From assembly GCA_041653215.1 (NCBI GenBank), contig JBAZFW010000002.1, forward strand, positions 8,990-72,989: a DNA stretch of 64,000 nt. The letters run 5' to 3'. The DNA is from Patescibacteria group bacterium. Its GTDB lineage: Bacteria > Patescibacteriota > Patescibacteriia > Patescibacteriales > GWC2-42-12. The notes below the pieces were generated by a model. It ran no database searches and was not told the origin of the DNA. It worked only from the letters and a program-made list of their open reading frames with translations. Below are positions 752 through 63,453 of this stretch, piece by piece (the stretch's first letter is position 1; every line of letters begins with the position of its first letter). Made by a program: the position numbers and the translations under genes.

Positions 752-888
752 TGTCATTGCGAGCGTTAGCGAGGCAATATCACGGACTATTTATTAAGTT
801 GATAGATTGTTTTTAAAAATAACTTTTATTTTAGAAAATTGTTTGTGAGATTGCCGCGTCGCCCGATTACGGGCTCCTCGCAATGACA
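752..888. repeat. Type-I palindromic element (tgtcattgcgagc...gcaatatcac / gtgagattgc...ctcctcgcaatgaca), 137 bp
   Basis: Terminal inverted repeats plus an inner inverted repeat. About 93% identical to the copy at 4349-4484. Confidence 0.85.
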
Positions 889-4339: not shown

Positions 4340-4348
4340 TTTTCACTT

Positions 4349-4484
4349 GTCATTGCGAGCGTTAGCGAAGCAATCTCACGGACTATTTATTAAATTTACA
4401 GATTGTTTTTAAAAATAACTTTCATTTTAGAAAAATGTTTGTGAGATTGCCGCGTCGCCTGATTACAGGCTCCTCGCAATGACA
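4349..4484. repeat. Type-I palindromic element, 136 bp
   Basis: tgtcattgcgagcgttagcgaagcaatctcac ... gtgagattgccgcgtcgcctgattacaggctcctcgcaatgaca. The tracked ATG at 4479 lies inside it. Confidence 0.85.
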
Positions 4485-7819: not shown

Positions 7820-9115
7820 TTGAAATTTATGTTAATCGGCATTGACGCCTCGCGCGCCAACAGACAATTTAAAGGCGGAACAGAATGGTATTCTTATTAT
7901 TTAATAAGAGAACTGGCTAAAATTGATTCTAAAAATCAATATATTTTATATACGGATAAACCTTTGACTGGCGGTTTAGCTGATTTAACTAATGAAAATC
8001 ATTTTGCCAAGCCCGGTAAAATTGATAAACATGGCTGGCCCGCTTCGACTCGTCGATGGCGAGGCGAGCAGGAAGTTAAAAGTCCGTTTGGAAATTTTCG
8101 CGTTAAAATTTTAAAATGGCCTTTTATTTATTTTTGGACACAAATTAGATTATCTTATGAAATGTTCGTTCATCCGGCGGACATTCTTTTTGTTCCGGCC
8201 CATACTTTACCGGTTATTCATCCGAAAAAATCAATCGTTACGATTCATGACATAGGTTTTGAACGTTTCGCTAAACTTTATAGTTCGGATAAAATCGGCC
8301 CGACTTCCAGATCTATTAATTTTTTAATTAAACTGTTTACTCTTGGTAAATTACATCCTGACGTTATTAGCCATCATACTTGGTCTACTAAATATGCGCT
8401 TAAACACGCTGAAATAATTATTTCGGTTTCAGAATTTACTAAACAAGAAATGGTTGATTTTTATAAAGCTGACGCGGAAAAAATTAAAGTCGTGCATAAC
8501 GGCTTTAATAATGAACTTTACCGCCCGATTAATGACAGGGAAAAAATAAAACAAGTTTTAGATAAATATGATATTAAAACTCCTTATATTTTTTATGTCG
8601 GTCGGTTAGAAAAAAAGAAAAATACCGCTATGTTAGTTAATGCTTACGCGATTATGAGGCAAAAATATAAAGACATAAAACATAAATTAGTTTTAGTCGG
8701 TAAGTCCGGGCTTGGTTTTGATGAAGTTAAATATGTTATTAATGAATTTAATCTTGATGAAGAGGTGATTATAACCGGCTGGGTGCCGGAAGCTGATATG
8801 CCTTATATTCATAACGGCGCTGCTTTATTTGTTTTTCCTTCGCTTTACGAAGGCTTTGGCATACCGTTAGTTGAAGCTATGGCTTCGGGCGTACCGATTG
8901 CAGCTTCAAATATTGCATCCATCCCGGAAGTTGTTAAAGATTCGGCTTTGCTTTTTAATCCAAACGATAAAGAAGATATGGCGGAAAAAATGGCAAAAAT
9001 ATTATTAGATAAGCAACTAGCCGATGAATTAATTAATAGGGGATTTAAACGAGCTAAAGATTTTAGCTTAACTAAATGCGCTCAGGAAATATTAGCATTA
9101 ATAGAAAAGATGTAA
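7820..9115 (+). CDS. Glycosyltransferase family 4
   Basis: GT-B/GT4 C-terminal signature PSLYEGFGIPLVEAMASGVPIAASN. Paralog of 21339-22505. The tracked start is TTG; an in-frame ATG is at 7829. Confidence 0.85.
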   Translation: MKFMLIGIDASRANRQFKGGTEWYSYYLIRELAKIDSKNQYILYTDKPLTGGLADLTNENHFAKPGKIDKHGWPASTRRWRGEQEVKSPFGNFRVKILKWPFIYFWTQIRLSYEMFVHPADILFVPAHTLPVIHPKKSIVTIHDIGFERFAKLYSSDKIGPTSRSINFLIKLFTLGKLHPDVISHHTWSTKYALKHAEIIISVSEFTKQEMVDFYKADAEKIKVVHNGFNNELYRPINDREKIKQVLDKYDIKTPYIFYVGRLEKKKNTAMLVNAYAIMRQKYKDIKHKLVLVGKSGLGFDEVKYVINEFNLDEEVIITGWVPEADMPYIHNGAALFVFPSLYEGFGIPLVEAMASGVPIAASNIASIPEVVKDSALLFNPNDKEDMAEKMAKILLDKQLADELINRGFKRAKDFSLTKCAQEILALIEKM

Positions 9116-19437: not shown

Positions 19438-21181
19438 AATTAAAAATTGGTTTAAAAAATATTGGCGCATAATTATTATAACTATAGCGGCTATCTGTTT
19501 TTTTATTGGCACAGCTAGTTTTAATTATTTTACGCAATCAGCTGATTTTGTTAAATGGCTGTCGCCGGACGAATCGGCTAATTATAATTTTACAAAACTT
19601 TACGCCCAAGAAGGCGAGCTAATGTTTTTTGAAAGATATAATATTTTAGCTCACGATATAATTCATCCTAGGAGCATTAGAAGCGATTTTGGTTATTTAA
19701 AACCGGTAAGTTTTTTAGGTATTATTTTAATCTACGGGAAAATCGCTAGTTTAACTACCTATAAAATTATACCTTATTTAACTCCGCTGTTCGCCGCTCT
19801 AGCGATTATTTTTTATTATTTATTAATTAAAGAAATTTTTGGCAAACGCAACGCTTTAATTTCAGCTTTAATTTTAAGCGTTTTCCCGCCCCTGGTTTAT
19901 TATAGCGCCCGCAGCATGTTTCATAACGTATTATTCGTTGTTTTACTTATAATCAGTCTTTATTTCGCTTGTTTATCGGTAAAAAAGAAAGAAAAATTAA
20001 CGAATACAAGTAAGGTAAAAACCGCGATGATAGATATCTTGCCGGATTTATTCGCCGGTTTAAGCGGCATTTTTTTAGGCTTAACCATCACAACTCGTTC
20101 ATCAGAATTAATTTGGTTAGCCCCGGTTTCCTTAATTATTTGGTTGTTTAATATTAAAAAGTTTGGCTTTATTAAGCCGTTGATTTTTATTGCTTGTTTA
20201 TTTTTTGCTCTTACGCCCGCTATGTATTGGAATAAAATATTATATCAATCATATTGGCGCGGCGGTTATAACGAAATGAACCAGTCTATTATAAATATCG
20301 CCGGCGCTAGCTCAAATATTTTAAAAAGCGGGGTGGTAAATTCCGAAGCGATTAAAAACAGTTTAGCAGAAATAAAAAATAATTTTTTTCATTTTGGCTG
20401 GCAGCCGTATAAAAGTTTAAAGATGCTTTACTTTTATTTTGCTAAAATGTTTTATTGGATTTTCTGGCCGGCTCTTTTTGGCTTTTTGCTTTTATTTTCA
20501 AAAATAAAAAAGTGGCGAGCTAAGCATTATGTTTATTTAATTGCTTTATTTACCGCCGCAGCGATTTTAATATCTTATTATGGCAGTTGGGATTTTCATG
20601 ATAACCCAGACCCTAAAAGCCGCACCATCGGTAATTCTTATACTCGTTATTGGCTGCCGATTTATCTAGGCGCTATTCCTTTGGCCGTTATCTTTTTAGT
20701 AAAGCTATCAAATGTACTAAAGAAAAAAATATTAATTTATAGTTTCCGTATCTTAATGATTTTATTGGTATTTTTTATTTCCATTAGATTTGTTTTAATC
20801 GGCTCCGAAGAAGGTCTAATAAAAACGGCTAAAACACAGCTAACGGTTCGCGCTGAATATGAACAAGTATTAAAATTAACTGAAAATAACAGCGTTATTG
20901 TTACTCAATATCATGACAAATTATTGTTCCCAGCCAGAAAAGTGATTGTTGGTTTATTTGACGATCCTAATATGACGAAAGAATATGCGGTTTTAGCTAA
21001 AAAATTACCAGTTTATTACTATAATTTTACTTTTCCAGAGAAAGATATTAATTATTTAAATAATAAAAAATTGCCTGAATTTAATTTAAAGATAGAGGCC
21101 GTGGAAAAAGTTACTAAATATTTTACGCTATATAGATTAGAGAATGTAGAATTACCTGTCATTGCGAGCGAAACGAAGTGA
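19427..21181 (+). CDS. GT-C fold glycosyltransferase (ArnT/PMT_2-like)
   Basis: Polytopic protein with an acidic first-loop motif SPDESANY. The start was set at the ATG at 19427 (MKYKIKNWFKKYW). The last 8 codons and the TGA stop come from the repeat at 21157. Confidence 0.5.
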   Translation: MKYKIKNWFKKYWRIIIITIAAICFFIGTASFNYFTQSADFVKWLSPDESANYNFTKLYAQEGELMFFERYNILAHDIIHPRSIRSDFGYLKPVSFLGIILIYGKIASLTTYKIIPYLTPLFAALAIIFYYLLIKEIFGKRNALISALILSVFPPLVYYSARSMFHNVLFVVLLIISLYFACLSVKKKEKLTNTSKVKTAMIDILPDLFAGLSGIFLGLTITTRSSELIWLAPVSLIIWLFNIKKFGFIKPLIFIACLFFALTPAMYWNKILYQSYWRGGYNEMNQSIINIAGASSNILKSGVVNSEAIKNSLAEIKNNFFHFGWQPYKSLKMLYFYFAKMFYWIFWPALFGFLLLFSKIKKWRAKHYVYLIALFTAAAILISYYGSWDFHDNPDPKSRTIGNSYTRYWLPIYLGAIPLAVIFLVKLSNVLKKKILIYSFRILMILLVFFISIRFVLIGSEEGLIKTAKTQLTVRAEYEQVLKLTENNSVIVTQYHDKLLFPARKVIVGLFDDPNMTKEYAVLAKKLPVYYYNFTFPEKDINYLNNKKLPEFNLKIEAVEKVTKYFTLYRLENVELPVIASETK

Positions 21182-21335
21182 AGCGAAGCAATCCCTGGTA
21201 AGCCCAGAAAAACAAAAAATTAGCAAACACTACTTTAAAATAAATTCAGACTAACTCTAGGCATTTTAAAAAATAATTAAATTTTGTGCCATCAAACCGG
21301 AGATTGCTTCGTCGCTGGCGCTTCTCGCAATGACA
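21157..21335. repeat. Type-I palindromic element, 179 bp (long spacer)
   Basis: tgtcattgcgagcgaaacgaagtgaagcgaagcaatccc ... ggagattgcttcgtcgctggcgcttctcgcaatgaca. Confidence 0.8.
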
Positions 21336-21338
21336 AAT

Positions 21339-22505
21339 ATGAATACAAAAAAAATAAATCGTATCGGCATAGACGCTCGGTTTTACGGCCCAATAGGCAA
21401 GGGGTTGGGTAGATATACCCAGGAAGTTGTTGATAACATAATAAAGCTTGATCAAAAAAATAAGTACATTATATTTTTGCGTAAAGAAAATTTTTCTGAT
21501 TTTAAATGTGATGGCGTAAGAATAAAAAAAGTATTAGCTGATATAAAGTGGTATGGTTTAAGCGAGCAAATAATTTTTCCTTTTTACATTCTTCGCGAGC
21601 GCTTAGATTTAATGCATTTTCCGCATTTTAATGTACCGATTTTTTGCCCAGTTAAATTTATCGTTACCATCCACGATTTAATTTTAATAAAATTCCCGAC
21701 TTTGCGGGCCACTACTTTAGGGCCGGTCGTTTACAAAATAAAAAATTTAGCTTATAAAATTGTGATTTCATTAGCGGTTAAGCGAGCTATGAAAATTTTA
21801 GCGGTTTCAGAATATACGAAAAAAGCTGTCGTCGAACAATTTAAAGTTGATTCTAAAAAAGTTGTTGTAACTTATGAAGGCGTAGCAAATTTGTCTGTCA
21901 TTTCGAGCGTCAGCGAGAAATCGCTTGTAGACGAAAGCCTCTCGCATAAGGGATTTCTTCCTTCGGTCGAAATGACAAAAAATTATCTTCTTTATGTCGG
22001 TAACGGTTATCCGCATAAAAATTTAGAAGGTTTAATAAAAGTTTTTTCTGAAATAAGTAAAGCTAAACCAGAATTAAAATTAGTCTTAGTCGGCAAAGAA
22101 GATTATTTTTACAGCCGATTAAAACAATACGCTAAAAATTTTTCAAACAATATTATTTTTCCTGGCTATGTCATGGATAGTAAGTTAAAGGAATTATACG
22201 CTAACGCGACTCTTTATATTTTCCCTTCTTTTTATGAAGGTTTTGGTTTGCCGCCGTTAGAAGCTATGGCGCATGGTTTAGCGGTCGTTAGTTCCGATAA
22301 AACTTGCTTACCGGAAATACTTGGCGACGCTGCTTTATATTTTAATCCCGAGGATGAAATGGATATGAAAAATAAGATTGAGCAAGGATTAGCAGATGAA
22401 AAATTACGCGAAGATTTAATAAATAGGGGATATGAACAAATCAAAAAGTATAGTTGGGTAGACTGCGCGGAAAAAACTTTAGAAGTTTATAAAAGTTGTT
22501 TATAA
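21339..22505 (+). CDS. Glycosyltransferase family 4 (carries an in-frame palindromic element)
   Basis: RIGIDARFYG at the N-terminus and PSFYEGFGLPPLEAMAHGLAVVSSD at the C-terminus. The start was moved to the ATG at 21339, just outside the upstream repeat. Confidence 0.85.
   Translation: MNTKKINRIGIDARFYGPIGKGLGRYTQEVVDNIIKLDQKNKYIIFLRKENFSDFKCDGVRIKKVLADIKWYGLSEQIIFPFYILRERLDLMHFPHFNVPIFCPVKFIVTIHDLILIKFPTLRATTLGPVVYKIKNLAYKIVISLAVKRAMKILAVSEYTKKAVVEQFKVDSKKVVVTYEGVANLSVISSVSEKSLVDESLSHKGFLPSVEMTKNYLLYVGNGYPHKNLEGLIKVFSEISKAKPELKLVLVGKEDYFYSRLKQYAKNFSNNIIFPGYVMDSKLKELYANATLYIFPSFYEGFGLPPLEAMAHGLAVVSSDKTCLPEILGDAALYFNPEDEMDMKNKIEQGLADEKLREDLINRGYEQIKKYSWVDCAEKTLEVYKSCL
21896..21977. repeat. 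Type-III palindromic element (tgtcatttcgagcg...cgaaatgaca) inside the CDS, read through in frame
   Basis: tgtcatttcgagcgtcagcgagaaatcgc ... gggatttcttccttcggtcgaaatgaca. It is translated as SVISSVSEKSLVDESLSHKGFLPSVEMT. Confidence 0.8.
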
Positions 22506-22601
22506 AGAGTTATTATTAAAAAAACGCCGTTAATTATATGGTGTTTTTTTAATTAAAATGGCTAAAATTAAATAAAAATTATTTTAAAGAATTTATTTTA
22601 T

Positions 22602-22630
22602 TTGACATAATTAATATAATGTGATATAGT
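22602..22630 (+). promoter_or_regulatory. Sigma70-type promoter (TTGACA-17-TATAGT with TG extension)
   Basis: ttgaca at 22602-22607, a 17-nt spacer ending in tga, and tatagt at 22625-22630. It lies 17 nt upstream of the ATG at 22648. Confidence 0.55.
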
Positions 22631-22647
22631 AAAACATTAGTAAAAAT

Positions 22648-23661
22648 ATGGAAATAAAGAAAATAATCATCCCAAATAAACCTCATTTGGACCCGATCGT
22701 TGCTGTTTATTTATTAAAGCAATATGGTCAAAATGTTTTTAATGGCATTAAAGATGCTGAGATTATTTTTTGGGAACATAGCCATGATCCTTCCAATGAA
22801 GAAATTGTAAAATTTAAAGAACAGGGGATTTTGTCAGTCGACGTGGGCGGCAGTATGTTTGATCATCATAATAATAATTTTGACGGTAAAAAAGAAACAG
22901 CTTCTTCTTTAGTAGCTGCTTATTTAAATATAGAAACAAATCCGGAAATTAATGCATTATTAAATTATGTCAGAGAAGATGATTTAGAGGGCTTGCATAA
23001 TCGTTATGGCGATTTGGCGTATTTAATAAAATGTTTTCACAAGCAAAATTTACCGTCGACAAAAGTTGTTGAACTAGGCCTAAGGATGATAAATTATTTT
23101 CAGACCTCGCAAATTGACTGGCATTTAAATGTTAAAAAAGAATATGAAGATAAAACAAAGATTTATAAAGTTAAAAGATTCGACAAAAAATTAAAAGTTG
23201 GCGTGGTTGAATCTGACAATTCGCAATTAGCTAATTACGGTATAACTATGGATAATTTAGCCGTGGTTGTACAAAAACATTCAAACGGCCAAGTAATGAT
23301 CTTAACTAATAAAAATCAACGCCTTAACATAAAGGAAATTGTAGCCGCCATAAGATTAAGAGAACTAGAATTAGGCGGTTATAATAAATCAATTGATCCG
23401 GCTAAATTGCAGTTTGAAGGTAAAAATTCTTTAATTCCAAATTGGTTTTATCATAAAAGTTTAAACGCTTTTTTAAACGGTTCTCATGCTTTAAATAAAG
23501 TTGAACCGACTAAAGTTAAATTTAGCGAAATTGTTTCTTTTGTTTGGAATGGTTTAAGTTCAGAACATTCAGAATATTGCGATTGCGATCAAGGCGGTTT
23601 AAGTTGCCCGTTTGTTAAATACGGTTTTAGCAAATGCAAAAGCAGAAAATTTAACAACTAA
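22648..23661 (+). CDS. MYG1/UPF0160-like metal-dependent hydrolase with Cys-rich C-terminal tail
   Basis: PHLDPIVAVYLL, VDVGGSMFDHH and REDDLEG resemble the FHxDE, VDVGG..DHH and DxxDNG motifs of MYG1-family proteins (recalled, not searched). The C-terminus is EYCDCDQGGLSCPFVKYGFSKC. Confidence 0.45.
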   Translation: MEIKKIIIPNKPHLDPIVAVYLLKQYGQNVFNGIKDAEIIFWEHSHDPSNEEIVKFKEQGILSVDVGGSMFDHHNNNFDGKKETASSLVAAYLNIETNPEINALLNYVREDDLEGLHNRYGDLAYLIKCFHKQNLPSTKVVELGLRMINYFQTSQIDWHLNVKKEYEDKTKIYKVKRFDKKLKVGVVESDNSQLANYGITMDNLAVVVQKHSNGQVMILTNKNQRLNIKEIVAAIRLRELELGGYNKSIDPAKLQFEGKNSLIPNWFYHKSLNAFLNGSHALNKVEPTKVKFSEIVSFVWNGLSSEHSEYCDCDQGGLSCPFVKYGFSKCKSRKFNN

Positions 23662-23797
23662 ATAAGGATTTAAGCAATCTTTTGTTTATTAAATTTAGTA
23701 AATAGAAGATTGCGAATAAATCGCAACGGTCTTTTAAAGAAAAGGACGCATAAGCGTCAAAAAATACAACAATAAATTATTTCGAGGAGGATTTAGG

Positions 23798-24466
23798 ATG
23801 GATAACAAGGAAAAGGTTGTTTTGAAGGCTGAAGTGCTGGCGTCGGGCAAAGGATGTCCGGTATGCGGTGGGGAAAAAACGGAAAAAGCAAAAACTTGTA
23901 GACCATGCTTGACGAACATAGGTTCCGCGGCCACCAAGGCGGTTAACGCAATTGCTGAGGTGTCTTGCGATGCTCTTTTCGCCAATGCGATGGCTAACAG
24001 CGGCGACGTGGTCAGAGGTACAGTCTGGGGTCCATTTTTGGCTAATACCAGAATCGACATAGATGCCAAGTTCACCCCAGCGAAAAATGACATCGGCGCC
24101 CACTGGCATTGTAAGAGAGGCGTGCCTGGCGGATATATGTCAATTTTTATCTTCGGTGATAACCTTAAGGCCGGTCAGGAAGTCTGCGGTTTAGCAGAGT
24201 TGAAGATAAAGCATGCGCTTATCAAAGACAAGAATGGCAAAGTAATTAATAAAAAGCTCGTGCATTATATGCGCATGCAAACAGTGGAAGGCGTCAAGTC
24301 CGACTTCCGTCTGTCGGTTCTTGAGCCACAGGAAATTGATAGATTAAGACATGATTATCTACAGGCCACTGTGGTGCGGAACGATGGCTATGATTTCGCC
24401 GTCGGTTTTCTGCCAATGAAAAACGGCAAACGCGAAGAAGATGAGAAAATTGCGGCAACCGTGTAG
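23798..24466 (+). CDS. Orphan GC-rich protein with N-terminal CxxC...CxxC zinc-ribbon-like motif
   Basis: A 222-codon open frame at about 42-55% GC. AGGAGG at 23785-23790 lies 7 nt upstream of the ATG. The N-terminus reads GCPVCGGEKTEKAKTCRPC. I recognise no family. Confidence 0.7.
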   Translation: MDNKEKVVLKAEVLASGKGCPVCGGEKTEKAKTCRPCLTNIGSAATKAVNAIAEVSCDALFANAMANSGDVVRGTVWGPFLANTRIDIDAKFTPAKNDIGAHWHCKRGVPGGYMSIFIFGDNLKAGQEVCGLAELKIKHALIKDKNGKVINKKLVHYMRMQTVEGVKSDFRLSVLEPQEIDRLRHDYLQATVVRNDGYDFAVGFLPMKNGKREEDEKIAATV

Positions 24467-24501
24467 CGCCGCGATAATTCTCTCTAAAATTTAACCTTAT
24501 A

Positions 24502-24560
24502 CAAGGGTCTAAATACAATGCAAAATAAAGCAGAAGTATTTAGGCCCTTGCTTTATTTTA
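24502..24560 (+). terminator. Intrinsic terminator of the GC-rich ORF
   Basis: A 15-bp stem (caagggtctaaatac / gtatttaggcccttg, one G-U pair) is followed by ctttatttta. An alternative 11-bp pairing exists between aaaataaagca and tgctttatttt. Confidence 0.6.
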
Positions 24561-24683
24561 AACACTTTCCAGCTTTCTATATTTTATGTTATAATAATGT
24601 TAATAAATAACTAACTGCGCCATCTATATTATTATATGGTGCATAAGTTTTTTAAATATAAATAAATTTACTATTTTTTGTTC

Positions 24684-24727
24684 GTGAGATTGCTTCGTCG
24701 CCTGGTTGCAGGCTTCTCGCAATGACA
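24684..24727. repeat. Solo right half of a type-I element
   Basis: gtgagattgcttcgtcgcctggttgcaggcttctcgcaatgaca, with no matching left half upstream. Confidence 0.75.
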
Positions 24728-24740
24728 TTTGAATAAATAA

Positions 24741-27444: not shown

Positions 27445-27560
27445 TGTCATTGCGAGGAGGAGCGATAGCGACGACGAAGCAATCTCCGGTTCAATGGCAC
27501 ATATGCTGATTTTAACCAGAGATTGCTTCGTCGCCTGATTACAGGCTTCTCGCAATGACA
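27445..27560. repeat. Type-I palindromic element, 116 bp
   Basis: tgtcattgcgaggaggagcgatagcgacgacgaagcaatctcc ... agagattgcttcgtcgcctgattacaggcttctcgcaatgaca. Confidence 0.85.
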
Positions 27561-29613: not shown

Positions 29614-29626
29614 AGTTGATTTGAGT

Positions 29627-30823
29627 ATGTTTAAAATAGTAAAAAAATCTAAAATTTCTAAGGCTAGGCTTGGCATTATACAAACTCCACACGGTAAAAT
29701 TGAGACACCTGTTTTTATGCCAGACGCTACCAGGGGAGTAATAAAACATTTAAGCGTCCAAGATTTAAATAATCTGGGTTTAGAATGTTTAGTAGCTAAT
29801 ACTTTCCATTTATTTTTACGCCCGGGCACTAAATTAATTAAAAAAACTAACGGCTTACATAATTTTATAAATTGGCAAAAACCGATTTTAACCGATAGCG
29901 GCGGCTACCAGGTTTTTTCTTTAATTCATAAACCCCCGCACCTGCAAGCAAGTGCGGGGGCAAATTCTACGTCTAAATATAGGTGTGGGGGTGAAAACGG
30001 CTCGCAAGGTTTAATTAATGATAATGGAGCGATTTTTAAATCTCCGCTTGATGGCGCTAAATTAAAAATGACGCCTGAGCTATCCATTAAAACGCAGTTT
30101 GAATTAGGAGTTGATATGATAGTTTGCTTTGATGATTGTCCGCCTAATAGTTATAGCGATAAAATGATAACTATTGCGGTTGAACGAACGATAAAATGGG
30201 CGACCCGATGCAGGCGTGAATACGATAAGCAAGTTAAATTATTAAAAAATAAAAAAAATAAACCATTATTATTTGCTGTTATCCAGGGCGGCGATAATTT
30301 AAAATTAAGAAAACGGTGCGCTAGAGAACTTAATAAAATTGGTTTTGATGGTTTTGGTTTCGGCGCAAGACATATTGATGAATCTGGAAACTTTTTGACC
30401 GAAGCTTTAGAATATACAGCCGAGCAAATCCCGGAAAATAAATTACGTTTTGGTTTAGGTATTGGTACGCCTGAAGATATTTTAAAATCCATTAAATTAG
30501 GTTGGGATATGTTTGATTGCGTCATTCCAACAAGAGAAGGCAGGCATGGCAAACTTTTTTTAAAAAAAGGATCAATAAGTAAAAATAATAATAAATTTTA
30601 TAGTGCTATAAATATTACTAATGCTAAATTCATTAAAGATTTTTCGCCAATTAACAAAAATAGTAAATTAGTTGAATTACGACAATATTCTAAAGCTTAC
30701 CTTAATTACTTATTTAAAATTAACGAACCGCTAGCCTTAAGGTTGGCCAGCTTGAATAATCTTGAATTTTATCTTAATATTATAAGTGAAGTTAAGGGTT
30801 TAATTAAACAAAATAAAATTTAA
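29627..30823 (+). CDS. tgt: tRNA-guanine transglycosylase family protein (divergent, no Zn site)
   Basis: TPVFMPDAT, ANTFHLFLRPG, LTDSGGYQVFS, FDDC and WDMFDCVIPTR match Tgt. The CxCxxC...H ligands and GGLAVGE are not conserved (see findings). The start was set at the ATG at 29627. Confidence 0.7.
   Translation: MFKIVKKSKISKARLGIIQTPHGKIETPVFMPDATRGVIKHLSVQDLNNLGLECLVANTFHLFLRPGTKLIKKTNGLHNFINWQKPILTDSGGYQVFSLIHKPPHLQASAGANSTSKYRCGGENGSQGLINDNGAIFKSPLDGAKLKMTPELSIKTQFELGVDMIVCFDDCPPNSYSDKMITIAVERTIKWATRCRREYDKQVKLLKNKKNKPLLFAVIQGGDNLKLRKRCARELNKIGFDGFGFGARHIDESGNFLTEALEYTAEQIPENKLRFGLGIGTPEDILKSIKLGWDMFDCVIPTREGRHGKLFLKKGSISKNNNKFYSAINITNAKFIKDFSPINKNSKLVELRQYSKAYLNYLFKINEPLALRLASLNNLEFYLNIISEVKGLIKQNKI
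29932..29992. repeat. Composite GC-rich hairpin element inside the tgt CDS
   Basis: acccccgcacc (29932-29942), gtgcggggg (29952-29960) and ggtgtgggggt (29982-29992). The last 11-mer is identical to the right arm at 15382-15392. Confidence 0.75.
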
Positions 30824-53833: not shown

Positions 53834-53941
53834 TGTCATTGCGAGGAGCGTAGCGACGAAGCAATCTCACGGACAACAATTTTTTACCCAAACTTGCCAT
53901 TAGTGAGATTGCTTCGCTCCCGCTGGTCGCTCGCAATGACA
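53834..53941. repeat. Type-I palindromic element, 108 bp
   Basis: tgtcattgcgaggagcgtagcgacgaagcaatctcac ... gtgagattgcttcgctcccgctggtcgctcgcaatgaca. Confidence 0.85.
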
Positions 53942-53951
53942 AAATATAATT

Positions 53952-55274
53952 ATGTCAATATTCACAAAAACAATTTTTACCGGCTTTGCGCCTAACTTAA
54001 CCGGCCGCGATACGCGCTCGGCTTTAAGTTATTTATTATTGCCTTGGCGCTGGTTAAAAATTTCTTCAGGTAAATATACTGTAATGGCCGAAAAAAAATT
54101 ACGAGAATATTTTAATATAAAACATGCTTATGTTTTTGATAGCGGCCGCTCAGCTCTTTATTATGCTTTAAAGGCTTTAGGAGCAGGGGAAGGCGACGAA
54201 GTTTTAATGCAAGCTTATACTTGCGTTGTAGTAGTTAACGCTATTAAATTTACCGGGGCTAAGCCGATTTTTATTGACATCAATAATACTTTTAATATTG
54301 ACCCGGCCGATTTAGAAAAACGCATCACGCCTAAAACAAAAATTTTAATTATCCAACACACTTTCGGTCTGCCGGCAAATTTAGATTATCTTTTAGCCAT
54401 CGCCGCCAAACATAATATAAAAGTCATTGAAGATTGCGCTCACTCATTAGGCGCGCGCTACAATGGCAAACTAACCGGCACCTTCGGTCATATCGGCATG
54501 CTAAGTTTTGGCTCGGATAAAATTATTTCTTGTGTCCGCGGCGGAGCATTAATTACGAACGATAATGAGATAGGGAATAAAATTAAACAACTATCTTTAG
54601 AATTAGCTAAGCCGAAATTAGGAAAAACATTACAACATTTAATGCATTATCCAATATTCTACATCTCTAAACCTATTTATCATTTATTTATTGGTAAATT
54701 TATACTAATGTTAGCTAAAAAACTCAATGTTTTTAATAAAATAATCTATAAAAAAGAAAAAACAGGGGAGCAAGTCAATTTTTATCCGGCTAAATTAGCT
54801 AATAGCTTAGCGCATATATTATGCGAGCAAATAAATGAAATTGATGAGCTAAATGCGCATCGCCAAACTATCGCCAAATATTATAGCGAGCATCTAAGTT
54901 GCCATTCCGACTCCGAGCGAAGCGAGGAGGAGGAATCCCTTCAACCTGCCATAAAAACAGTTAAGGGATTTCTCGCTAACGCTCGAAATGACAATTCTAA
55001 TAATACTTGTGCATTTTTGCGTTATCCATTGCTAACTAAAAATCCGAAAGAACTTTTAACCTATGCTAAAAAGCAAGGGATAATTTTAGGCGATTGGTAT
55101 AGTTGCGTGATCGCGCCATGCGATAGTGAAATAAATAAAACCGGCTACCATGCCGGCGATTGTCCGAACGCTGAACGCCTAGCCGCCGAGTCAGTTAATT
55201 TACCAACTGATAGGCATATTACGGAAAAACAAGCGGAGAAAATTATAAAAATTATAAATTCATATAATAACTAG
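53952..55274 (+). CDS. DegT/DnrJ/EryC1/StrS-family PLP-dependent sugar aminotransferase (carries an in-frame palindromic element)
   Basis: SGRSALYYALKALG, IIQHTFGLPA, EDCAHSLGA and SFGSDKIISCVRGGAL (PLP lysine context). Confidence 0.8.
   Translation: MSIFTKTIFTGFAPNLTGRDTRSALSYLLLPWRWLKISSGKYTVMAEKKLREYFNIKHAYVFDSGRSALYYALKALGAGEGDEVLMQAYTCVVVVNAIKFTGAKPIFIDINNTFNIDPADLEKRITPKTKILIIQHTFGLPANLDYLLAIAAKHNIKVIEDCAHSLGARYNGKLTGTFGHIGMLSFGSDKIISCVRGGALITNDNEIGNKIKQLSLELAKPKLGKTLQHLMHYPIFYISKPIYHLFIGKFILMLAKKLNVFNKIIYKKEKTGEQVNFYPAKLANSLAHILCEQINEIDELNAHRQTIAKYYSEHLSCHSDSERSEEEESLQPAIKTVKGFLANARNDNSNNTCAFLRYPLLTKNPKELLTYAKKQGIILGDWYSCVIAPCDSEINKTGYHAGDCPNAERLAAESVNLPTDRHITEKQAEKIIKIINSYNN
54900..54992. 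repeat. Type-III palindromic element inside the CDS, read through in frame
   Basis: tgccattccgactccgagcgaagcgaggaggaggaatccc ... gggatttctcgctaacgctcgaaatgac. It is translated as CHSDSERSEEEESLQPAIKTVKGFLANARND. Confidence 0.75.
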
Positions 55275-61815: not shown

Positions 61816-63309
61816 CTATAACTTTTTTATAGCCTGATTTATTCTTTTTAAACTTTCTGGCTTGCCTAAAACTTCGGCGACTTCAAACGGTCCAGGGCTA
61901 GCCTGAAGCCCGGTTAAAGCAACGCGCGTCGGCCAAAGGTAATCCCCTACTTTTAACTCTTTTTCTTTTAAATAATCTATAATATCTTTTTCAATATTTT
62001 CTTTAAGCCAATCGCTATCAGTAATTTTTTCTAATAAATCATAAACAACTTGTAAATTTTCTTTAACCTGTTTTTCGTCTAACTTTTTCCAGATTAACAA
62101 TTTCTTTTCATAGTCTAATTCGTCCATAAAGAAAAATCTGGTTGACTCACCTATTTCTGATAATTTTTTTAACCTTTCCTGCTCTAACCCTATGGCTTTT
62201 TCTATAAAATCAATGGATTGTTTTTTATTATCTTTCGTTAACTTTAAATTTTCGCCCATAAAAGGCAAACATAATTTAGCTAATTTTTCTAACGAAATTT
62301 GCCTAATATAATAGCCATTAAAATAATCTAATTTTTCTATGTCAAAAATCGCCGGGCTAGTTCCCATGTCTTTATAATCAAAATATTCAATCATCTGTTC
62401 AAGACTTAATATTTCATCTTTTTTATCTTTCGGGGCTTTAGCCGAAGCCGACGGATGCCAACCTTGTAAAACACAGAAATTTAATAAAGCTTCTGGCAAA
62501 TAACCTTTAACGCGATAATCTTCAACCGCTACATCGCCCTGACGCTTACTTAATTTACCGCCTTCTTTATTCAAGGTTAACGGCAAATGAATAAATTTAG
62601 GCGCTTCCCAACCAAAAGATTGATATAATAAAATATTTTTAGGAAAACTAGACAACCATTCATCACCCCTTAAAACATGGCTTATTTTCATTAAATGATC
62701 ATCAACTACGTTAGCGAACTGATAAGTCGGCATGCCGTCTGATTTTATTAAAACTTGATCTTCTAAATCGGTTACTGCGAATTTAATATCGCCGCGCAGT
62801 TCGTCATGAACTATAACTTCGCCGTCTAACGGCATTTTTTGCCTAATAACAAATTTTTCTCCGGCCTTAATTCTTTTTTCAACTTCTTCTTTACTAAGTT
62901 CGCGGCAAGTTCGATCATAACGCGGCGGTTTTTTTTCGGCCTGCTGCGCTTCTCTCATTTGCGTTAATCTTTCCGCCGTGCAAAAACAATAATAAGCTAA
63001 CCCCTTTTTTAAAAGAATTTCCGTATATTCTTTATAAATTTCTATTCTTTCTGATTGAGTGTATAGCCCGAATTCTCCGCCAATATGCGGCCCTTCATCA
63101 AATTTTATACCTATCCAATCTAAAATATTGATTAGGCCCTTAACAGCGCCTTCAACTTCTCTTTTTTGATCAGTATCTTCAATTCTTAAAATTAATTTTC
63201 CGCCCAAAGTTTTAGCAATTAGATAATCAAACAAGACAGTTCTTAGACTGCCGATATGCAAAAAACCGGTTGGTGATGGAGCAAAACGTAAGCGAATATT
63301 TTTTGACAT
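61816..63309 (-). CDS. gltX: Glutamate--tRNA ligase
   Basis: RFAPSPTGFLHIGS (HIGH) and KLSKR (KMSKS). The start was set at the second ATG (63309, MSKNIRLRF). Confidence 0.95.
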   Translation of the reverse strand: MSKNIRLRFAPSPTGFLHIGSLRTVLFDYLIAKTLGGKLILRIEDTDQKREVEGAVKGLINILDWIGIKFDEGPHIGGEFGLYTQSERIEIYKEYTEILLKKGLAYYCFCTAERLTQMREAQQAEKKPPRYDRTCRELSKEEVEKRIKAGEKFVIRQKMPLDGEVIVHDELRGDIKFAVTDLEDQVLIKSDGMPTYQFANVVDDHLMKISHVLRGDEWLSSFPKNILLYQSFGWEAPKFIHLPLTLNKEGGKLSKRQGDVAVEDYRVKGYLPEALLNFCVLQGWHPSASAKAPKDKKDEILSLEQMIEYFDYKDMGTSPAIFDIEKLDYFNGYYIRQISLEKLAKLCLPFMGENLKLTKDNKKQSIDFIEKAIGLEQERLKKLSEIGESTRFFFMDELDYEKKLLIWKKLDEKQVKENLQVVYDLLEKITDSDWLKENIEKDIIDYLKEKELKVGDYLWPTRVALTGLQASPGPFEVAEVLGKPESLKRINQAIKKL

Positions 63310-63322
63310 AAACATTATATCA

Positions 63323-63379
63323 ATTGAATTAAAATTTTATGGCCGCAGGGCTTTGCCCGCTATAAAATTTTAATTCAAT
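63323..63379. repeat. Long hairpin: 18-bp perfect AT-rich inverted repeat around a GC-rich core
   Basis: Arms attgaattaaaattttat and ataaaattttaattcaat. The core gcaggg/cccgc extends the stem. Two further hairpins follow at about 63398-63416 and 63421-63448. Confidence 0.7.
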
Positions 63380-63453
63380 ACTTTATATTTTTTGTTTATC
63401 CCGCTTAGGCGGGGAAAATATTAAAAACTTTTTCTAAAAAAGTTTTTAAAGCA

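What the first reader, a model, noticed from the sequence alone, without database searches (positions are those of the whole stretch)
21896..21977. Palindromic element translated in frame within a GT4 glycosyltransferase
An element of about 81-82 nt, with the family termini tgtcatttcgagcg ... cggtcgaaatgaca and the inner pair gagaaatcgc/gggatttctt, lies inside the 21339-22505 ORF. It does not break the frame and encodes SVISSVSEKSLVDESLSHKGFLPSVEMT.

It occupies the segment between VVTYEGV and NYLLYVGN. In the paralog 7820-9115, the corresponding segment is an unrelated 26-aa inter-domain linker. The situation is reminiscent of the Rickettsia palindromic elements that insert in frame into genes. 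I am not aware of this being characterised for this repeat family.
Basis: partly seen in the sequence, partly recalled or inferred. Interest (0 to 1): 0.7.

Follow-up and report, generated by a model that had tools for sequence, protein, structure and literature searches.

The report
Hairpin repeat translated within glycosyltransferase linker
An 82-base palindromic repeat lies in frame inside a sugar-transferase gene of an uncultured Patescibacteria bacterium and replaces the hinge between the enzyme's two halves. This kind of event is known from Rickettsia, but here the repeat family is uncharacterised, and its full-length relatives carry a small GIY-YIG nuclease gene.

Summary
Window 21896-21977 is an intact 82-nt member of a palindromic repeat family with about 10 copies in the window. 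It is read in frame as residues 187-213 of a GT4 glycosyltransferase.

The same element lies at the same codon in five other independent assemblies (78-91% protein identity), so it is not a chimera.

It is a replacement, not a pure insertion. About 18 ancestral residues are gone, including a confidently predicted linker helix. The new segment is modelled as a low-confidence loop between the two Rossmann domains.

Other close orthologues, including one whose gene is 89% identical in DNA, carry unrelated GC-rich hairpin repeats at this spot. Distant orthologues keep the canonical 40-aa linker. The linker is therefore a site of in-frame repeat turnover.

The element's third codon positions are far more conserved than the rest of the gene (0.85 vs 0.55).

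The family spans many phyla. In four independent Patescibacteria contexts its two ends bracket a 98-100-aa GIY-YIG nuclease gene, so the short copies look like ORF-less derivatives.

Verdict: a Rickettsia-palindromic-element-like event in a new, apparently undescribed family. Most likely it is tolerated selfish DNA. The mobility mechanism is inferred only.

The parts
21896..21977 (+). The in-frame palindromic element: 82 nt, T-type variant (TGTCATTTCGAG / GAGAAATC boxes). It is translated as GT4 residues 187-213.
   Evidence: Sequence. Inverted repeats. Fold z = -5.4. Same element at the same codon in L081, L082, L002, L003 and L004.
21896..21909 (+). Left terminal arm, TGTCATTTCGAGCG.
   Evidence: It pairs with 21964-21977, with one G-G mismatch.
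21914..21926 (+). Left inner box, CGAGAAATCGCTT. Its variable base (A) covaries with the T of the terminal box within the same half.
   Evidence: (T/A, G/C and C/G combinations; hybrid elements such as L103).
21927..21947 (+). Central variable loop. This is the part that diverges between the orthologous copies.
21948..21959 (+). Right inner box, AAGGGATTTCTT.
21964..21977 (+). Right terminal arm, CGGTCGAAATGACA.
21339..22505 (+). Host gene: a GT4 (GT-B fold) glycosyltransferase of 388 aa. The EX7E motif E300-E308 is intact.
   Evidence: Pfam. More than 7,900 homologues. Invariant columns. AF2 pLDDT 89.3. Weak PimA match in the PDB.
21157..21335 (.). G-type copy of the same family (179 nt) between the PMT_2-like gene and the GT4 gene. 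It supplies the last 7 codons and the stop of the upstream ORF (..PVIASETK*), and a spurious ATG at 21330.
   Evidence: L081 has only a decayed remnant here.
752..888 (.). Family copy, G-type, 137 nt, intergenic.
4348..4484 (.). Family copy, G-type, 137 nt, intergenic. Near-duplicate of 752-888.
12549..12676 (.). Family copy, G-type, with a second palindromic element (GTCATTCCGGCC.. / ..CCCGGGATGAC) nested inside it.
13702..13808 (.). Family copy, G-type, 107 nt, intergenic.
24683..24727 (.). Solo right half of a G-type element (GTGAGATTGCTTCG..CTCGCAATGACA).
27445..27560 (.). Family copy, G-type, 116 nt, intergenic. No counterpart in the relative L081, which is about 90% identical.
53834..53941 (.). 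Family copy, G-type, 108 nt. Its two ends align to both ends of full-length elements that carry a GIY-YIG gene (for example 37 of 39 nt at the 3' end of L215).
54900..54993 (-). Second T-type copy in the window, intergenic. Its right end is degenerate (..GTCGGAATGGCA).

Best explanation
The 82-nt segment is an intact, ORF-less (MITE-like) copy of a widespread family of palindromic mobile elements. The family architecture is: terminal box TGTCATTNCGAG, short loop, inner box GAGN'AATC, variable centre, then the mirror image.

In an ancestor of a small group of Falkowbacteria-like Patescibacteria, a copy came to occupy the inter-domain linker of a GT4 glycosyltransferase gene. It displaced about 18 codons, including a short linker helix. 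It survived for three reasons: its length keeps the frame (81 translated nt), the frame used has no stop, and the hinge between the two Rossmann domains is a solvent-exposed segment that tolerates almost any sequence.

It is now co-transcribed and co-translated as a 27-residue, probably disordered linker, and is inherited with the gene. No benefit to the host needs to be assumed. The same linker is a tolerant site at which several unrelated hairpin repeats have been fixed in sister lineages.

Full-length relatives of the family carry a 98-100-aa GIY-YIG nuclease gene between the same ends. I infer that this nuclease supplies mobility in trans. Its breaks at element copies, followed by repair or gene conversion, could explain the replacement, the turnover of linker alleles and the unusually well-kept arms.

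Shown: family membership, in-frame state, orthologous conservation, loss of the helix, loop location, and the nuclease gene lying between the element ends.

Inferred: translation, neutrality, and any role of the nuclease.
For: Family membership.
- The arms and boxes match about 10 window copies and 128 unique copies elsewhere.
- The 81/82-nt form has the modal family size of 70-90 nt.

In frame and inherited.
- The same element lies at the same codon in WIN, L081/L082, L002, L003 and L004, all from different assemblies.
- Indels within it are multiples of 3: 24 nt in L081.

The host gene is under purifying selection and intact.
- WIN vs L002 is 76% identical over all positions but 55% at third positions.
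- The EX7E motif and 69 invariant columns are kept.

Replacement of a structured segment.
- Canonical orthologues have AELSGANESVDVNAVLNKYKISRP with a confident helix at 192-198 (pLDDT about 95).
- The window protein is coil from 178 to 215, with pLDDT below 50 at 194-210.

Tolerant site.
- Other orthologues carry CCCCC..GGGGG hairpins (PLDKGGEGGL, DKGGLRGV), SSFPR..RRESRNYP types, or a 78-aa composite insert at the same place. Their MFEs are -20 to -67 kcal/mol, against about -5 to -20 for canonical linkers.
- In the Micavibrio locus L201 a family copy lies in frame in the lipoyl/E3-binding linker of a pyruvate dehydrogenase E2.
- The window has two further in-frame hairpin insertions that are absent from the 90%-identical L081.

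Read-through is easy. 82% of family copies have at least one stop-free frame, and 41% are open in the GT4 frame.

Nuclease link.
- In 4 of 4 independent Patescibacteria contexts the PF01541 ORF is bracketed by TGTCATTGCGAG..GAAGCAATCTC and GAGATTGCTTC..CTCGCAATGACA. The contexts are L032, the L203 group, the L213 group and L215.
- Short window copies align to both ends of these roughly 390-nt elements.
- In Bacteroidota the gene lies inside tandem arrays of T-type elements.
Against: - No target-site duplication or clean empty-site/filled-site pair was found. The insertion mechanism is therefore unknown.
- The GIY-YIG link is purely by position. No such gene lies in the window or in L081. The bracketed examples are G-type, whereas the in-frame copy is T-type.
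- Third codon positions in the element are much better conserved than in the rest of the gene: 23/27 vs 0.55 (p about 1e-3; 0 of 307 sliding windows reach it). Pure neutrality does not predict this. It calls for gene conversion, recent spread of the linker allele, or selection on the hairpin.
- The element's distribution does not follow the gene tree. L216 is 89% identical in DNA but has a different linker. A single ancestral insertion with vertical descent is therefore not the whole story.
- Translation of the segment has not been observed.
Confidence: 0.72

Rival explanations
1. Exapted element. The hairpin itself, in the mRNA or in single-stranded DNA, is now under selection. It might pause ribosomes between the two Rossmann domains, stabilise the transcript, or act as a protein-binding site. 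Alternatively the encoded peptide may have become a functional linker.
For: - Third-codon-position identity inside the element is 0.78-0.85, against 0.51-0.59 in the rest of the gene, for the three deep pairs. No sliding window, or almost none, reaches that value.
- The arms are kept while the 21-nt centre diverges.
- 89% of stem cells remain paired across six copies. Several of the one-sided changes are G-U-compatible on the sense strand.
- The element has persisted through about 20% protein divergence.
Against: - There are no compensatory double changes in the strong stems. Both-sided changes fall in the weak central part and involve non-orthologous copies.
- Sister lineages do well with quite different sequences, or with decayed hairpins, at the same place. 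L216 and L020 have MFEs of about -10 to -14 kcal/mol.
- No terminator-like or promoter-like feature is associated with the element.
- Gene conversion from the other genomic copies would give the same arm conservation without any function.
Confidence: 0.15
2. The GT4 gene is a decaying pseudogene in which a repeat happens to leave the frame open.
For: The element removes a conserved linker helix. The gene sits in a cluster with at least three other GT4 genes that might compensate.
Against: - The ORF is intact in all six assemblies.
- The substitution pattern is typical of purifying selection: third positions 55% identical against 76% overall.
- The nearly invariant residues of the orthologue family, including EX7E, are retained.
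- The AF2 model of the rest of the protein is confident.
- Indels within the element preserve the frame.
Confidence: 0.05
3. Artefact or coincidence. Either this is an assembly chimera joining a repeat into the gene, or it is a native linker that only resembles the repeat.
For: Repeats are classic sites of misassembly. Contigs carrying family members are often short.
Against: - The same junctions occur in six assemblies from different projects.
- The flanks are collinear with orthologues on both sides.
- All four boxes match a family found in isolates of several phyla.
- Distant orthologues lack any similarity to the element in this segment.
Confidence: 0.02

Closest known systems
Rickettsia palindromic elements (RPE; Ogata et al. 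2000, as reviewed in PMC10969869 and PMC3184786)
   Same: Both are palindromic repeats of about 100 nt, present in many copies, mostly intergenic, with some copies fused in frame into unrelated housekeeping genes. The inserted peptide lies where the fold tolerates it. Presence or absence varies between related genomes.
   Different: - The host is a different phylum (Patescibacteria).
- I could not test sequence similarity to any RPE family.
- Here the element replaces an ancestral segment rather than adding to it.
- The same site carries several unrelated repeat families in sister lineages.
- This family occurs across many phyla and has full-length members that encode a GIY-YIG nuclease.
Bacterial MITEs and other small repeats found intragenically (ERIC, BOX/RUP/SPRITE, the Bordetella BRE; Delihas 2007/2011, PMC3184786)
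   Same: All are short and non-coding, have terminal inverted repeats and strong secondary structure, and occasionally make in-frame fusions that extend or interrupt ORFs. The window copy at 21157-21335 also supplies a C-terminus and a stop codon.
   Different: MITEs are defined by a parent insertion sequence with a transposase, and usually by target-site duplications. Neither was found here. The only gene seen between the ends is a GIY-YIG nuclease, which is not a known bacterial transposase.
REP/REPIN elements and their RAYT (Y1) transposases
   Same: - Each half of the element is itself an imperfect palindrome: ATTNC-GA-GC-loop-GC-GA-GN'AAT.
- Two halves in inverted orientation form a long hairpin, as in a REPIN.
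- The associated gene is single and small, and in Bacteroidota it is flanked by arrays of elements, as RAYT genes are by REPINs.
   Different: - There is no 5' GTAG motif.
- The associated protein is GIY-YIG (PF01541), not an IS200/IS605-type Y1 transposase.
- REP families are usually species-specific. Here an exact 24-base motif is shared by many phyla.
Free-standing GIY-YIG homing endonuclease genes (the Seg and I-TevI type; from general knowledge)
   Same: A small GIY-YIG nuclease gene forms the cargo of a compact selfish element. Spread by break and repair would fit the co-conversion or replacement of flanking sequence seen here.
   Different: - These proteins are about 98 aa and consist of the catalytic domain only, without the DNA-binding extension of classical homing enzymes.
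- They are framed by structured palindromic ends.
- They have abundant ORF-less derivatives.
- No cleavage activity or target is known.

Membership tests
The TGTCATTNCGAG palindromic repeat family (unnamed) | Terminal boxes TGTCATTNCGAG / CTCGN'AATGACA in inverted orientation | tested here: met
   Positions 21896-21909 and 21964-21977, with one mismatch.
The TGTCATTNCGAG palindromic repeat family (unnamed) | Inner boxes GAGN'AATC / GATTNCTC, with N' complementary to the N of the adjacent terminal box | tested here: met
   GAGAAATC and GGATTTCT occur with TTTCGAG ends. The covariation pattern is seen.
The TGTCATTNCGAG palindromic repeat family (unnamed) | Multiple dispersed copies in the same genome | tested here: met
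   About 10 copies in 64 kb, 9 vs 0.8 expected for the 13-mer.
Rickettsia palindromic elements (RPE) | Palindromic repeat inserted in frame in a protein-coding gene and compatible with the fold | tested here: met
Rickettsia palindromic elements (RPE) | Sequence similarity to one of the described RPE families | not tested
   No RPE consensus was available in the tools. One contig labelled as a Rickettsia typhi MAG (L178) carries the T-type motif, but that is not a test.
Rickettsia palindromic elements (RPE) | Occurs in Rickettsia/Rickettsiales genomes | tested here: not met
   The named orthologues of the host gene (60-76% identical) are from Candidatus Falkowbacteria or Patescibacteria.
MITE | Short (under about 300 nt), non-coding, with terminal inverted repeats | tested here: met
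MITE | Target-site duplication flanking the copies | tested here: inconclusive
   No consistent direct repeat appears at the flanks of the window copies or at sites that differ from L081. The intergenic flanks are too diverged to decide.
MITE | Autonomous parent element with the same ends that encodes a transposase | tested here: inconclusive
   Longer elements with the same ends exist, but their ORF is a GIY-YIG nuclease, not a recognised transposase.
REP/REPIN-RAYT | Inverted doublet of imperfect palindromes forming a long hairpin | tested here: met
   (half-element structure; hybrids with T-type and C-type halves).
REP/REPIN-RAYT | Association with an IS200/IS605-like Y1 transposase (RAYT), and a conserved 5' GTAG | tested here: not met
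   The ends begin TGTCAT. The only recurrent neighbouring gene found is PF01541 GIY-YIG. No systematic search for RAYT genes was made.
GT4 / GT-B glycosyltransferase (host gene) | Glyco_transf_4 N-domain plus Glycos_transf_1 C-domain, two Rossmann-like domains, and the EX7E motif | tested here: met
   Pfam. AF2 secondary structure. E300 and E308 are invariant.

The most novel reading that the evidence does not exclude
The element may belong to a so far undescribed class of bacterial mobile DNA. In this reading, elements of about 390 nt have structured palindromic ends that frame a minimal (about 98-aa) GIY-YIG nuclease. These would have spawned huge numbers of 70-180-nt ORF-less hairpin derivatives in at least ten phyla. 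In small-genome Patescibacteria, nuclease-provoked break repair at these hairpins would repeatedly rewrite surface linkers of proteins, producing cassette-like turnover of linker alleles such as that seen in this GT4. The arms would be kept intact by gene conversion or by selection.
Probability: 0.35. Interest if true: 0.8.

Novelty: new variant of a known kind. Interest (0 to 1): 0.6.

Why it matters
- It extends the "selfish DNA inside protein-coding genes" phenomenon, best known from Rickettsia, to the Candidate Phyla Radiation. There it appears frequent: three in-frame hairpin insertions in this 64-kb window, and 29 of 35 CCCCC..GGGGG hairpins in related loci lie inside open frames.
- This affects gene calling and homology modelling in these genomes. 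It also affects any inference that treats linker insertions as lineage-specific adaptations.
- The GT4 orthologue series is a natural experiment. It shows that a GT-B inter-domain hinge, helix included, can be swapped for arbitrary hairpin-encoded peptides.
- The link between this repeat family, which spans many phyla, and a minimal GIY-YIG nuclease gives a concrete, testable candidate for how such repeats move. Culturable hosts are available (Tenacibaculum, Mucilaginibacter, Thermonema, Dialister).

Tried and rejected
- Rfam at gathering thresholds on the whole window, and at E <= 10 on 21100-22050: nothing relevant.
- Literature searches found only primer coincidences and general reviews. 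I searched the terminal sequences, palindromic elements plus Patescibacteria/CPR, GIY-YIG plus MITE, and COG2827/YhbQ.
- phmmer with the 30-aa element peptide against 1.84 billion proteins gave one 78-aa hit. The query is too short to survey in-frame copies.
- Exact-protein look-up of the window GT4: not on record.
- Search for target-site duplications at sites that differ between the window and L081: the intergenic flanks are too diverged. At 21157-21335, L081 has a decayed remnant rather than an empty site.
- Compensatory-change test on six copies: the stems are mostly invariant, so it says little.
- Intrinsic-terminator reading of the hairpin: no T-run and no call.
- Of four candidate intragenic copies in other phyla, only L201 (E2 acetyltransferase) is convincing. 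L122, L128 and L130 are open frames without recognisable protein character.
- The neighbour-joining tree of orthologues is too rough to decide between repeated insertion and recombination.
Full report
**1. The observation**

Window 21896-21977 reads TGTCATTTCGAGCG TCAG CGAGAAATCGCTT (21 nt) AAGGGATTTCTT CCTT CGGTCGAAATGACA. Two nested inverted repeats were found independently. The terminal arms are 19 nt and 84% complementary. The inner arms are 11 nt and 91% complementary.

The RNA fold is -37.8 kcal/mol, against -20 +/- 3.3 for shuffles (z = -5.4). The terminal 13-mer with up to 2 mismatches occurs 9 times in the window, against 0.8 expected. Paired termini define about ten family copies. 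Most are a G-type (TGTCATTGCGAG / GAAGCAATC). The in-frame copy and 54900-54993(-) are a T-type (TGTCATTTCGAG / GAGAAATC).

The element lies in ORF 21339-22505, a GT4 glycosyltransferase (Pfam Glycos_transf_1 at 2e-38 plus Glyco_transf_4). It is read without a stop as residues 187-213, VISSVSEKSLVDESLSHKGFLPSVEMT.

**2. Real, and inherited**

The gene has thousands of homologues. The named ones are from Candidatus Falkowbacteria and other Patescibacteria. I fetched 80 orthologous loci from metagenomes and the contigs of the two closest proteins.

The same element lies at the same codon, after ..V-A-x-L-S, in five further contigs:
- L081/L082 (91% protein identity, from two projects)
- L002
- L004
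- L003, where two extra small hairpins are nested inside it (-62 kcal/mol)

This excludes an assembly chimera.

L081 is syntenic with the window over about 22 kb at about 90% DNA identity. Its copy has 24 extra nt. WIN, L002 and L004 share the 81-nt form, which is also the modal family size.

**3. A replacement in the inter-domain hinge**

Distant orthologues share a 40-aa linker, ANLAKGRDSLFVAKLDxxETLxxYNIxxxFLLYVGN. The nearest canonical relatives (76% identity) have AELSGANESVDVNAVLNKYKISRP. The window protein keeps only ANLS.. and ..KN. About 18 residues are gone.

AlphaFold2 gives the following.
- Canonical P0008 (pLDDT 91.7): a confident helix at 192-198 (VNAVLNK) between the last N-domain strand and the first C-domain strand.
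- Window protein (pLDDT 89.3): coil from 178 to 215, with pLDDT below 50 at 194-210. The rest of the GT-B fold is confident.

The catalytic EX7E motif and the family's invariant residues are intact. Third positions diverge much faster than the whole gene (0.55 vs 0.76 identity for WIN-L002), as expected under purifying selection.

**4. The linker is a site of repeat turnover**

Within the clade that is at least 70% identical, the same segment carries unrelated sequences, all GC-rich hairpins in a 33% GC genome:
- CCCCCC..GGGGGG types (..KTPLDKGGEGGL.., ..PPDKGGLRGV.., ..LKTPFIKGGRGDF..)
- SSFPR..RRESRNYP types
- a 78-aa composite insert that still keeps the canonical ..ILAKYNIKKP (L027-29)

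Their MFEs are -20 to -67 kcal/mol, against about -5 to -20 for canonical linkers.

L216 has the same PMT_2-to-GT4 synteny and a gene 89% identical in DNA to the window's. In place of the element it has a decayed CCCCC-type hairpin (LKTPFSKDKESNF). The flanks are 90-100% identical and the linker cannot be aligned.

On a rough NJ tree the linker types are scattered among close relatives. So either the site has been re-occupied repeatedly, or linker alleles are exchanged by recombination. I could not decide between these.

Hairpin-encoded peptides also occur at other points of the orthologues: the N-terminus, after about residue 241, and after residue 268.

**5. In-frame hairpins are common in this lineage**

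Comparing the window with L081, every indel that lies inside a gene is a multiple of 3.
- A 33-nt hairpin in a second GT4 (15360-15393, HPHTSEKGVGV) is present only in the window.
- A 63-nt hairpin insertion in tRNA-guanine transglycosylase (about 29931-29996) is present only in the window.
- A 54-nt insertion just before the first C-domain strand of that second GT4 is present only in L081.

In the related loci, 29 of 35 CCCCC..GGGGG cores lie inside long open frames.

The TGTCATTNCGAG family behaves differently. It is mainly intergenic. Of 28 paired-end copies in 543 kb of related loci, only the orthologous GT4 copies are intragenic.

Read-through is easy for this family. 82% of 128 unique copies have a stop-free frame, and 41% are open in the frame used in GT4.

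**6. Nucleotide-level conservation**

For the deep pairs the figures are:

| Pair | Third-position identity in the element | In the rest of the gene |
|---|---|---|
| WIN-L002 | 23/27 | 0.55 |
| WIN-L004 | 21/27 | 0.51 |
| L002-L004 | 21/27 | 0.54 |

Binomial p is 1e-3 to 1e-2. Of 307 sliding windows of the same size, 0, 0 and 3 respectively reach the observed value.

The arms are kept while the 21-nt centre diverges. Changes in the strong stems are one-sided, with no compensatory pairs.

This is unexpected for a purely neutral relic. Three things could produce it: gene conversion from other copies, recent spread of the allele, or selection on the hairpin. The data do not separate them.

**7. 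What the family is**

The exact motif GTCATTTCGAGCGNNAGCGAGAAATC occurs in at least 120 contigs of GTDB species representatives. The organisms include Bacteroidota, Chloroflexota, Desulfobacterota, Dialister, Burkholderiales, Nitrospirota, Elusimicrobia, Micavibrio and several CPR groups. Cultured isolates are among them: Tenacibaculum, Mucilaginibacter, Thermonema, Fodinibius and Dialister.

Elements are mostly 70-90 nt. Each half is itself an imperfect palindrome, ATTNC-GA-GC-loop-GC-GA-GN'AAT. N and N' covary within a half, and hybrids have T-type and C-type halves. The architecture therefore resembles a REPIN, an inverted doublet of REP-like hairpins.

Neither Rfam nor the paper library knows the sequence.

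In Micavibrio (L201) a copy lies in frame between the lipoyl domain (residues 4-77) and the E3-binding domain (134-169) of a 2-oxoacid dehydrogenase E2. This is another inter-domain linker.

**8. A GIY-YIG nuclease between the ends**

In L032 the gene immediately after the GT4 orthologue is a 98-aa GIY-YIG protein (PF01541). It is framed by TGTCATTGCGAGC..CGAAGCAATCTCTGG and CCAGAGATTGCTTCG..CCTCGCAATGACA.

A homologue search returned thousands of proteins of about 98 aa, mostly from Patescibacteria and often on short contigs. In every context I fetched, the ORF is bracketed in the same way, giving elements of about 390 nt. The contexts are pheS|ORF|pheT in two species, and GH1|ORF|IMPDH in a Falkowbacteria MAG.

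The short window copies align to both ends of these elements. For example, 53834-53941 aligns to L215 positions 1-45 and 361-399, matching 37 of 39 nt at the 3' end. They are best read as ORF-less derivatives.

In Bacteroidota the homologous gene lies between complete T-type elements in tandem arrays.

This is positional evidence only. I found no paper that describes it.

**9. Mechanism and verdict**

The most likely account (about 0.7) has four parts.
- A non-autonomous copy of this family came to occupy the GT4 hinge.
- It was kept because it preserves the frame, has no stop, and lies in a tolerant, exposed linker.
- It is translated as a disordered 27-aa hinge.
- The nuclease-bearing relatives provide mobility, and perhaps the breaks whose repair explains the replacement, the allele turnover and the arm homogenisation.

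The rivals are exaptation of the hairpin or peptide (about 0.15), a pseudogene (about 0.05) and an artefact (about 0.02).

The event works like a Rickettsia palindromic element (PMC10969869, PMC3184786). It is not a demonstrated member of that family: the host is different, sequence similarity was not tested, and the associated gene is different. It fails the RAYT criterion for REPINs, and the transposase and TSD criteria for MITEs are unresolved.

I rate it a new variant of a known kind, with interest about 0.6.

Noticed in passing
window 21157-21335: A G-type copy of the same family fills the gap between the PMT_2-like gene and the GT4 gene. It provides the last 7 codons and the stop of the upstream ORF (..PVIASETK*), and an in-frame ATG (21330) that mimics a GT4 start. 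In L081 the two genes are 17 nt apart, and only a decayed remnant of the element's 5' end remains as the C-terminus (..PVIATTTQAIK*).
   Followed up: partly
window 15360-15393 (GT4 gene 14983-16161): A 33-nt GC-rich hairpin (CCCCCACACC..GGTGTGGGGG) is inserted in frame (HPHTSEKGVGV) in the N-domain of a second GT4. It is absent from the 90%-identical relative L081.
   Followed up: partly
window about 29931-29996 (TGT gene 29621-30823): A 63-nt in-frame insertion containing the hairpin CCCCCGCAC..GTGCGGGGG (..PPHLQASAGANSTSKYRCGGE..) lies in tRNA-guanine transglycosylase. It is absent from L081.
   Followed up: partly
L081 5045-5096: The reverse case. L081 has a 54-nt in-frame insertion (HPVKSQSTIGTQSVFNGV) just before the first C-domain strand (KFLFLGQ) of the second GT4, that is, at the same structural hinge. 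It is absent from the window.
   Followed up: partly
L001-L082 (for example L010 3668-3688, L017 3656-3716, L011 5633-5675): Small CCCCC(N3-9)GGGGG hairpins, translated as P-L-x-K-G-G-like peptides, are overwhelmingly inside long open frames: 29 of 35, of which 8 are in the GT4 linker. Some lie in a second loop of the same GT4 gene, and some are tandem pairs. This looks like a separate repeat family that prefers coding regions.
   Followed up: partly
L032 3037-3441; L203 650-1037; L213 649-1040; L215 640-1038: Full-length elements of about 390 nt. The family's terminal and inner boxes bracket a 98-100-aa GIY-YIG (PF01541) gene. Two different species have it between pheS and pheT.
   Followed up: yes
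L113 4806-5960 (Tenacibaculum discolor DSM 18842); also L151, L107, L092, L142: Tandem arrays of complete T-type elements lie about 20 nt apart, with a GIY-YIG gene embedded in the array in L113, L151, L107 and L092. The Alistipes locus L142 has 4 copies within 1.6 kb; no GIY-YIG ORF was found there.
   Followed up: partly
L201 1046-1117 (Micavibrio sp. UBA5703): A family copy lies in frame (VISSASEKSQNKTGDSSSQAPRND) in the flexible linker between the lipoyl and E3-binding domains of a dihydrolipoamide acyltransferase (E2).
   Followed up: yes
window 12549-12676; L125 443-604; L213 625-1100: Nested palindromic elements: a GTCATTCC..GGAATGAC-type element inside a GTCATTGCGAG element, or a GIY-YIG element inside another palindrome. 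This suggests insertion into existing hairpins, or simply tolerance there.
   Followed up: no
window 12534-12683 and 13688-13814 vs L081 1764-1915 and 2920-3082: The same intergenic sites are occupied by different repeats in the two genomes. The L081 versions resemble window 63308-63451 (84-87% identity), which is yet another repeat family.
   Followed up: no
window 16158-16946 and 22506-24733: Gene-content differences from L081. A 262-aa metallophosphoesterase-like ORF is present only in the window. The segment downstream of the GT4 gene is non-homologous (2.2 kb here, 1.4 kb with a 355-aa ORF in L081).
   Followed up: no
L178 about 1840-1940: A contig labelled as a Rickettsia typhi MAG (36% GC) carries a T-type element. 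A possible relation between this family and the Rickettsia palindromic elements was not examined.
   Followed up: no
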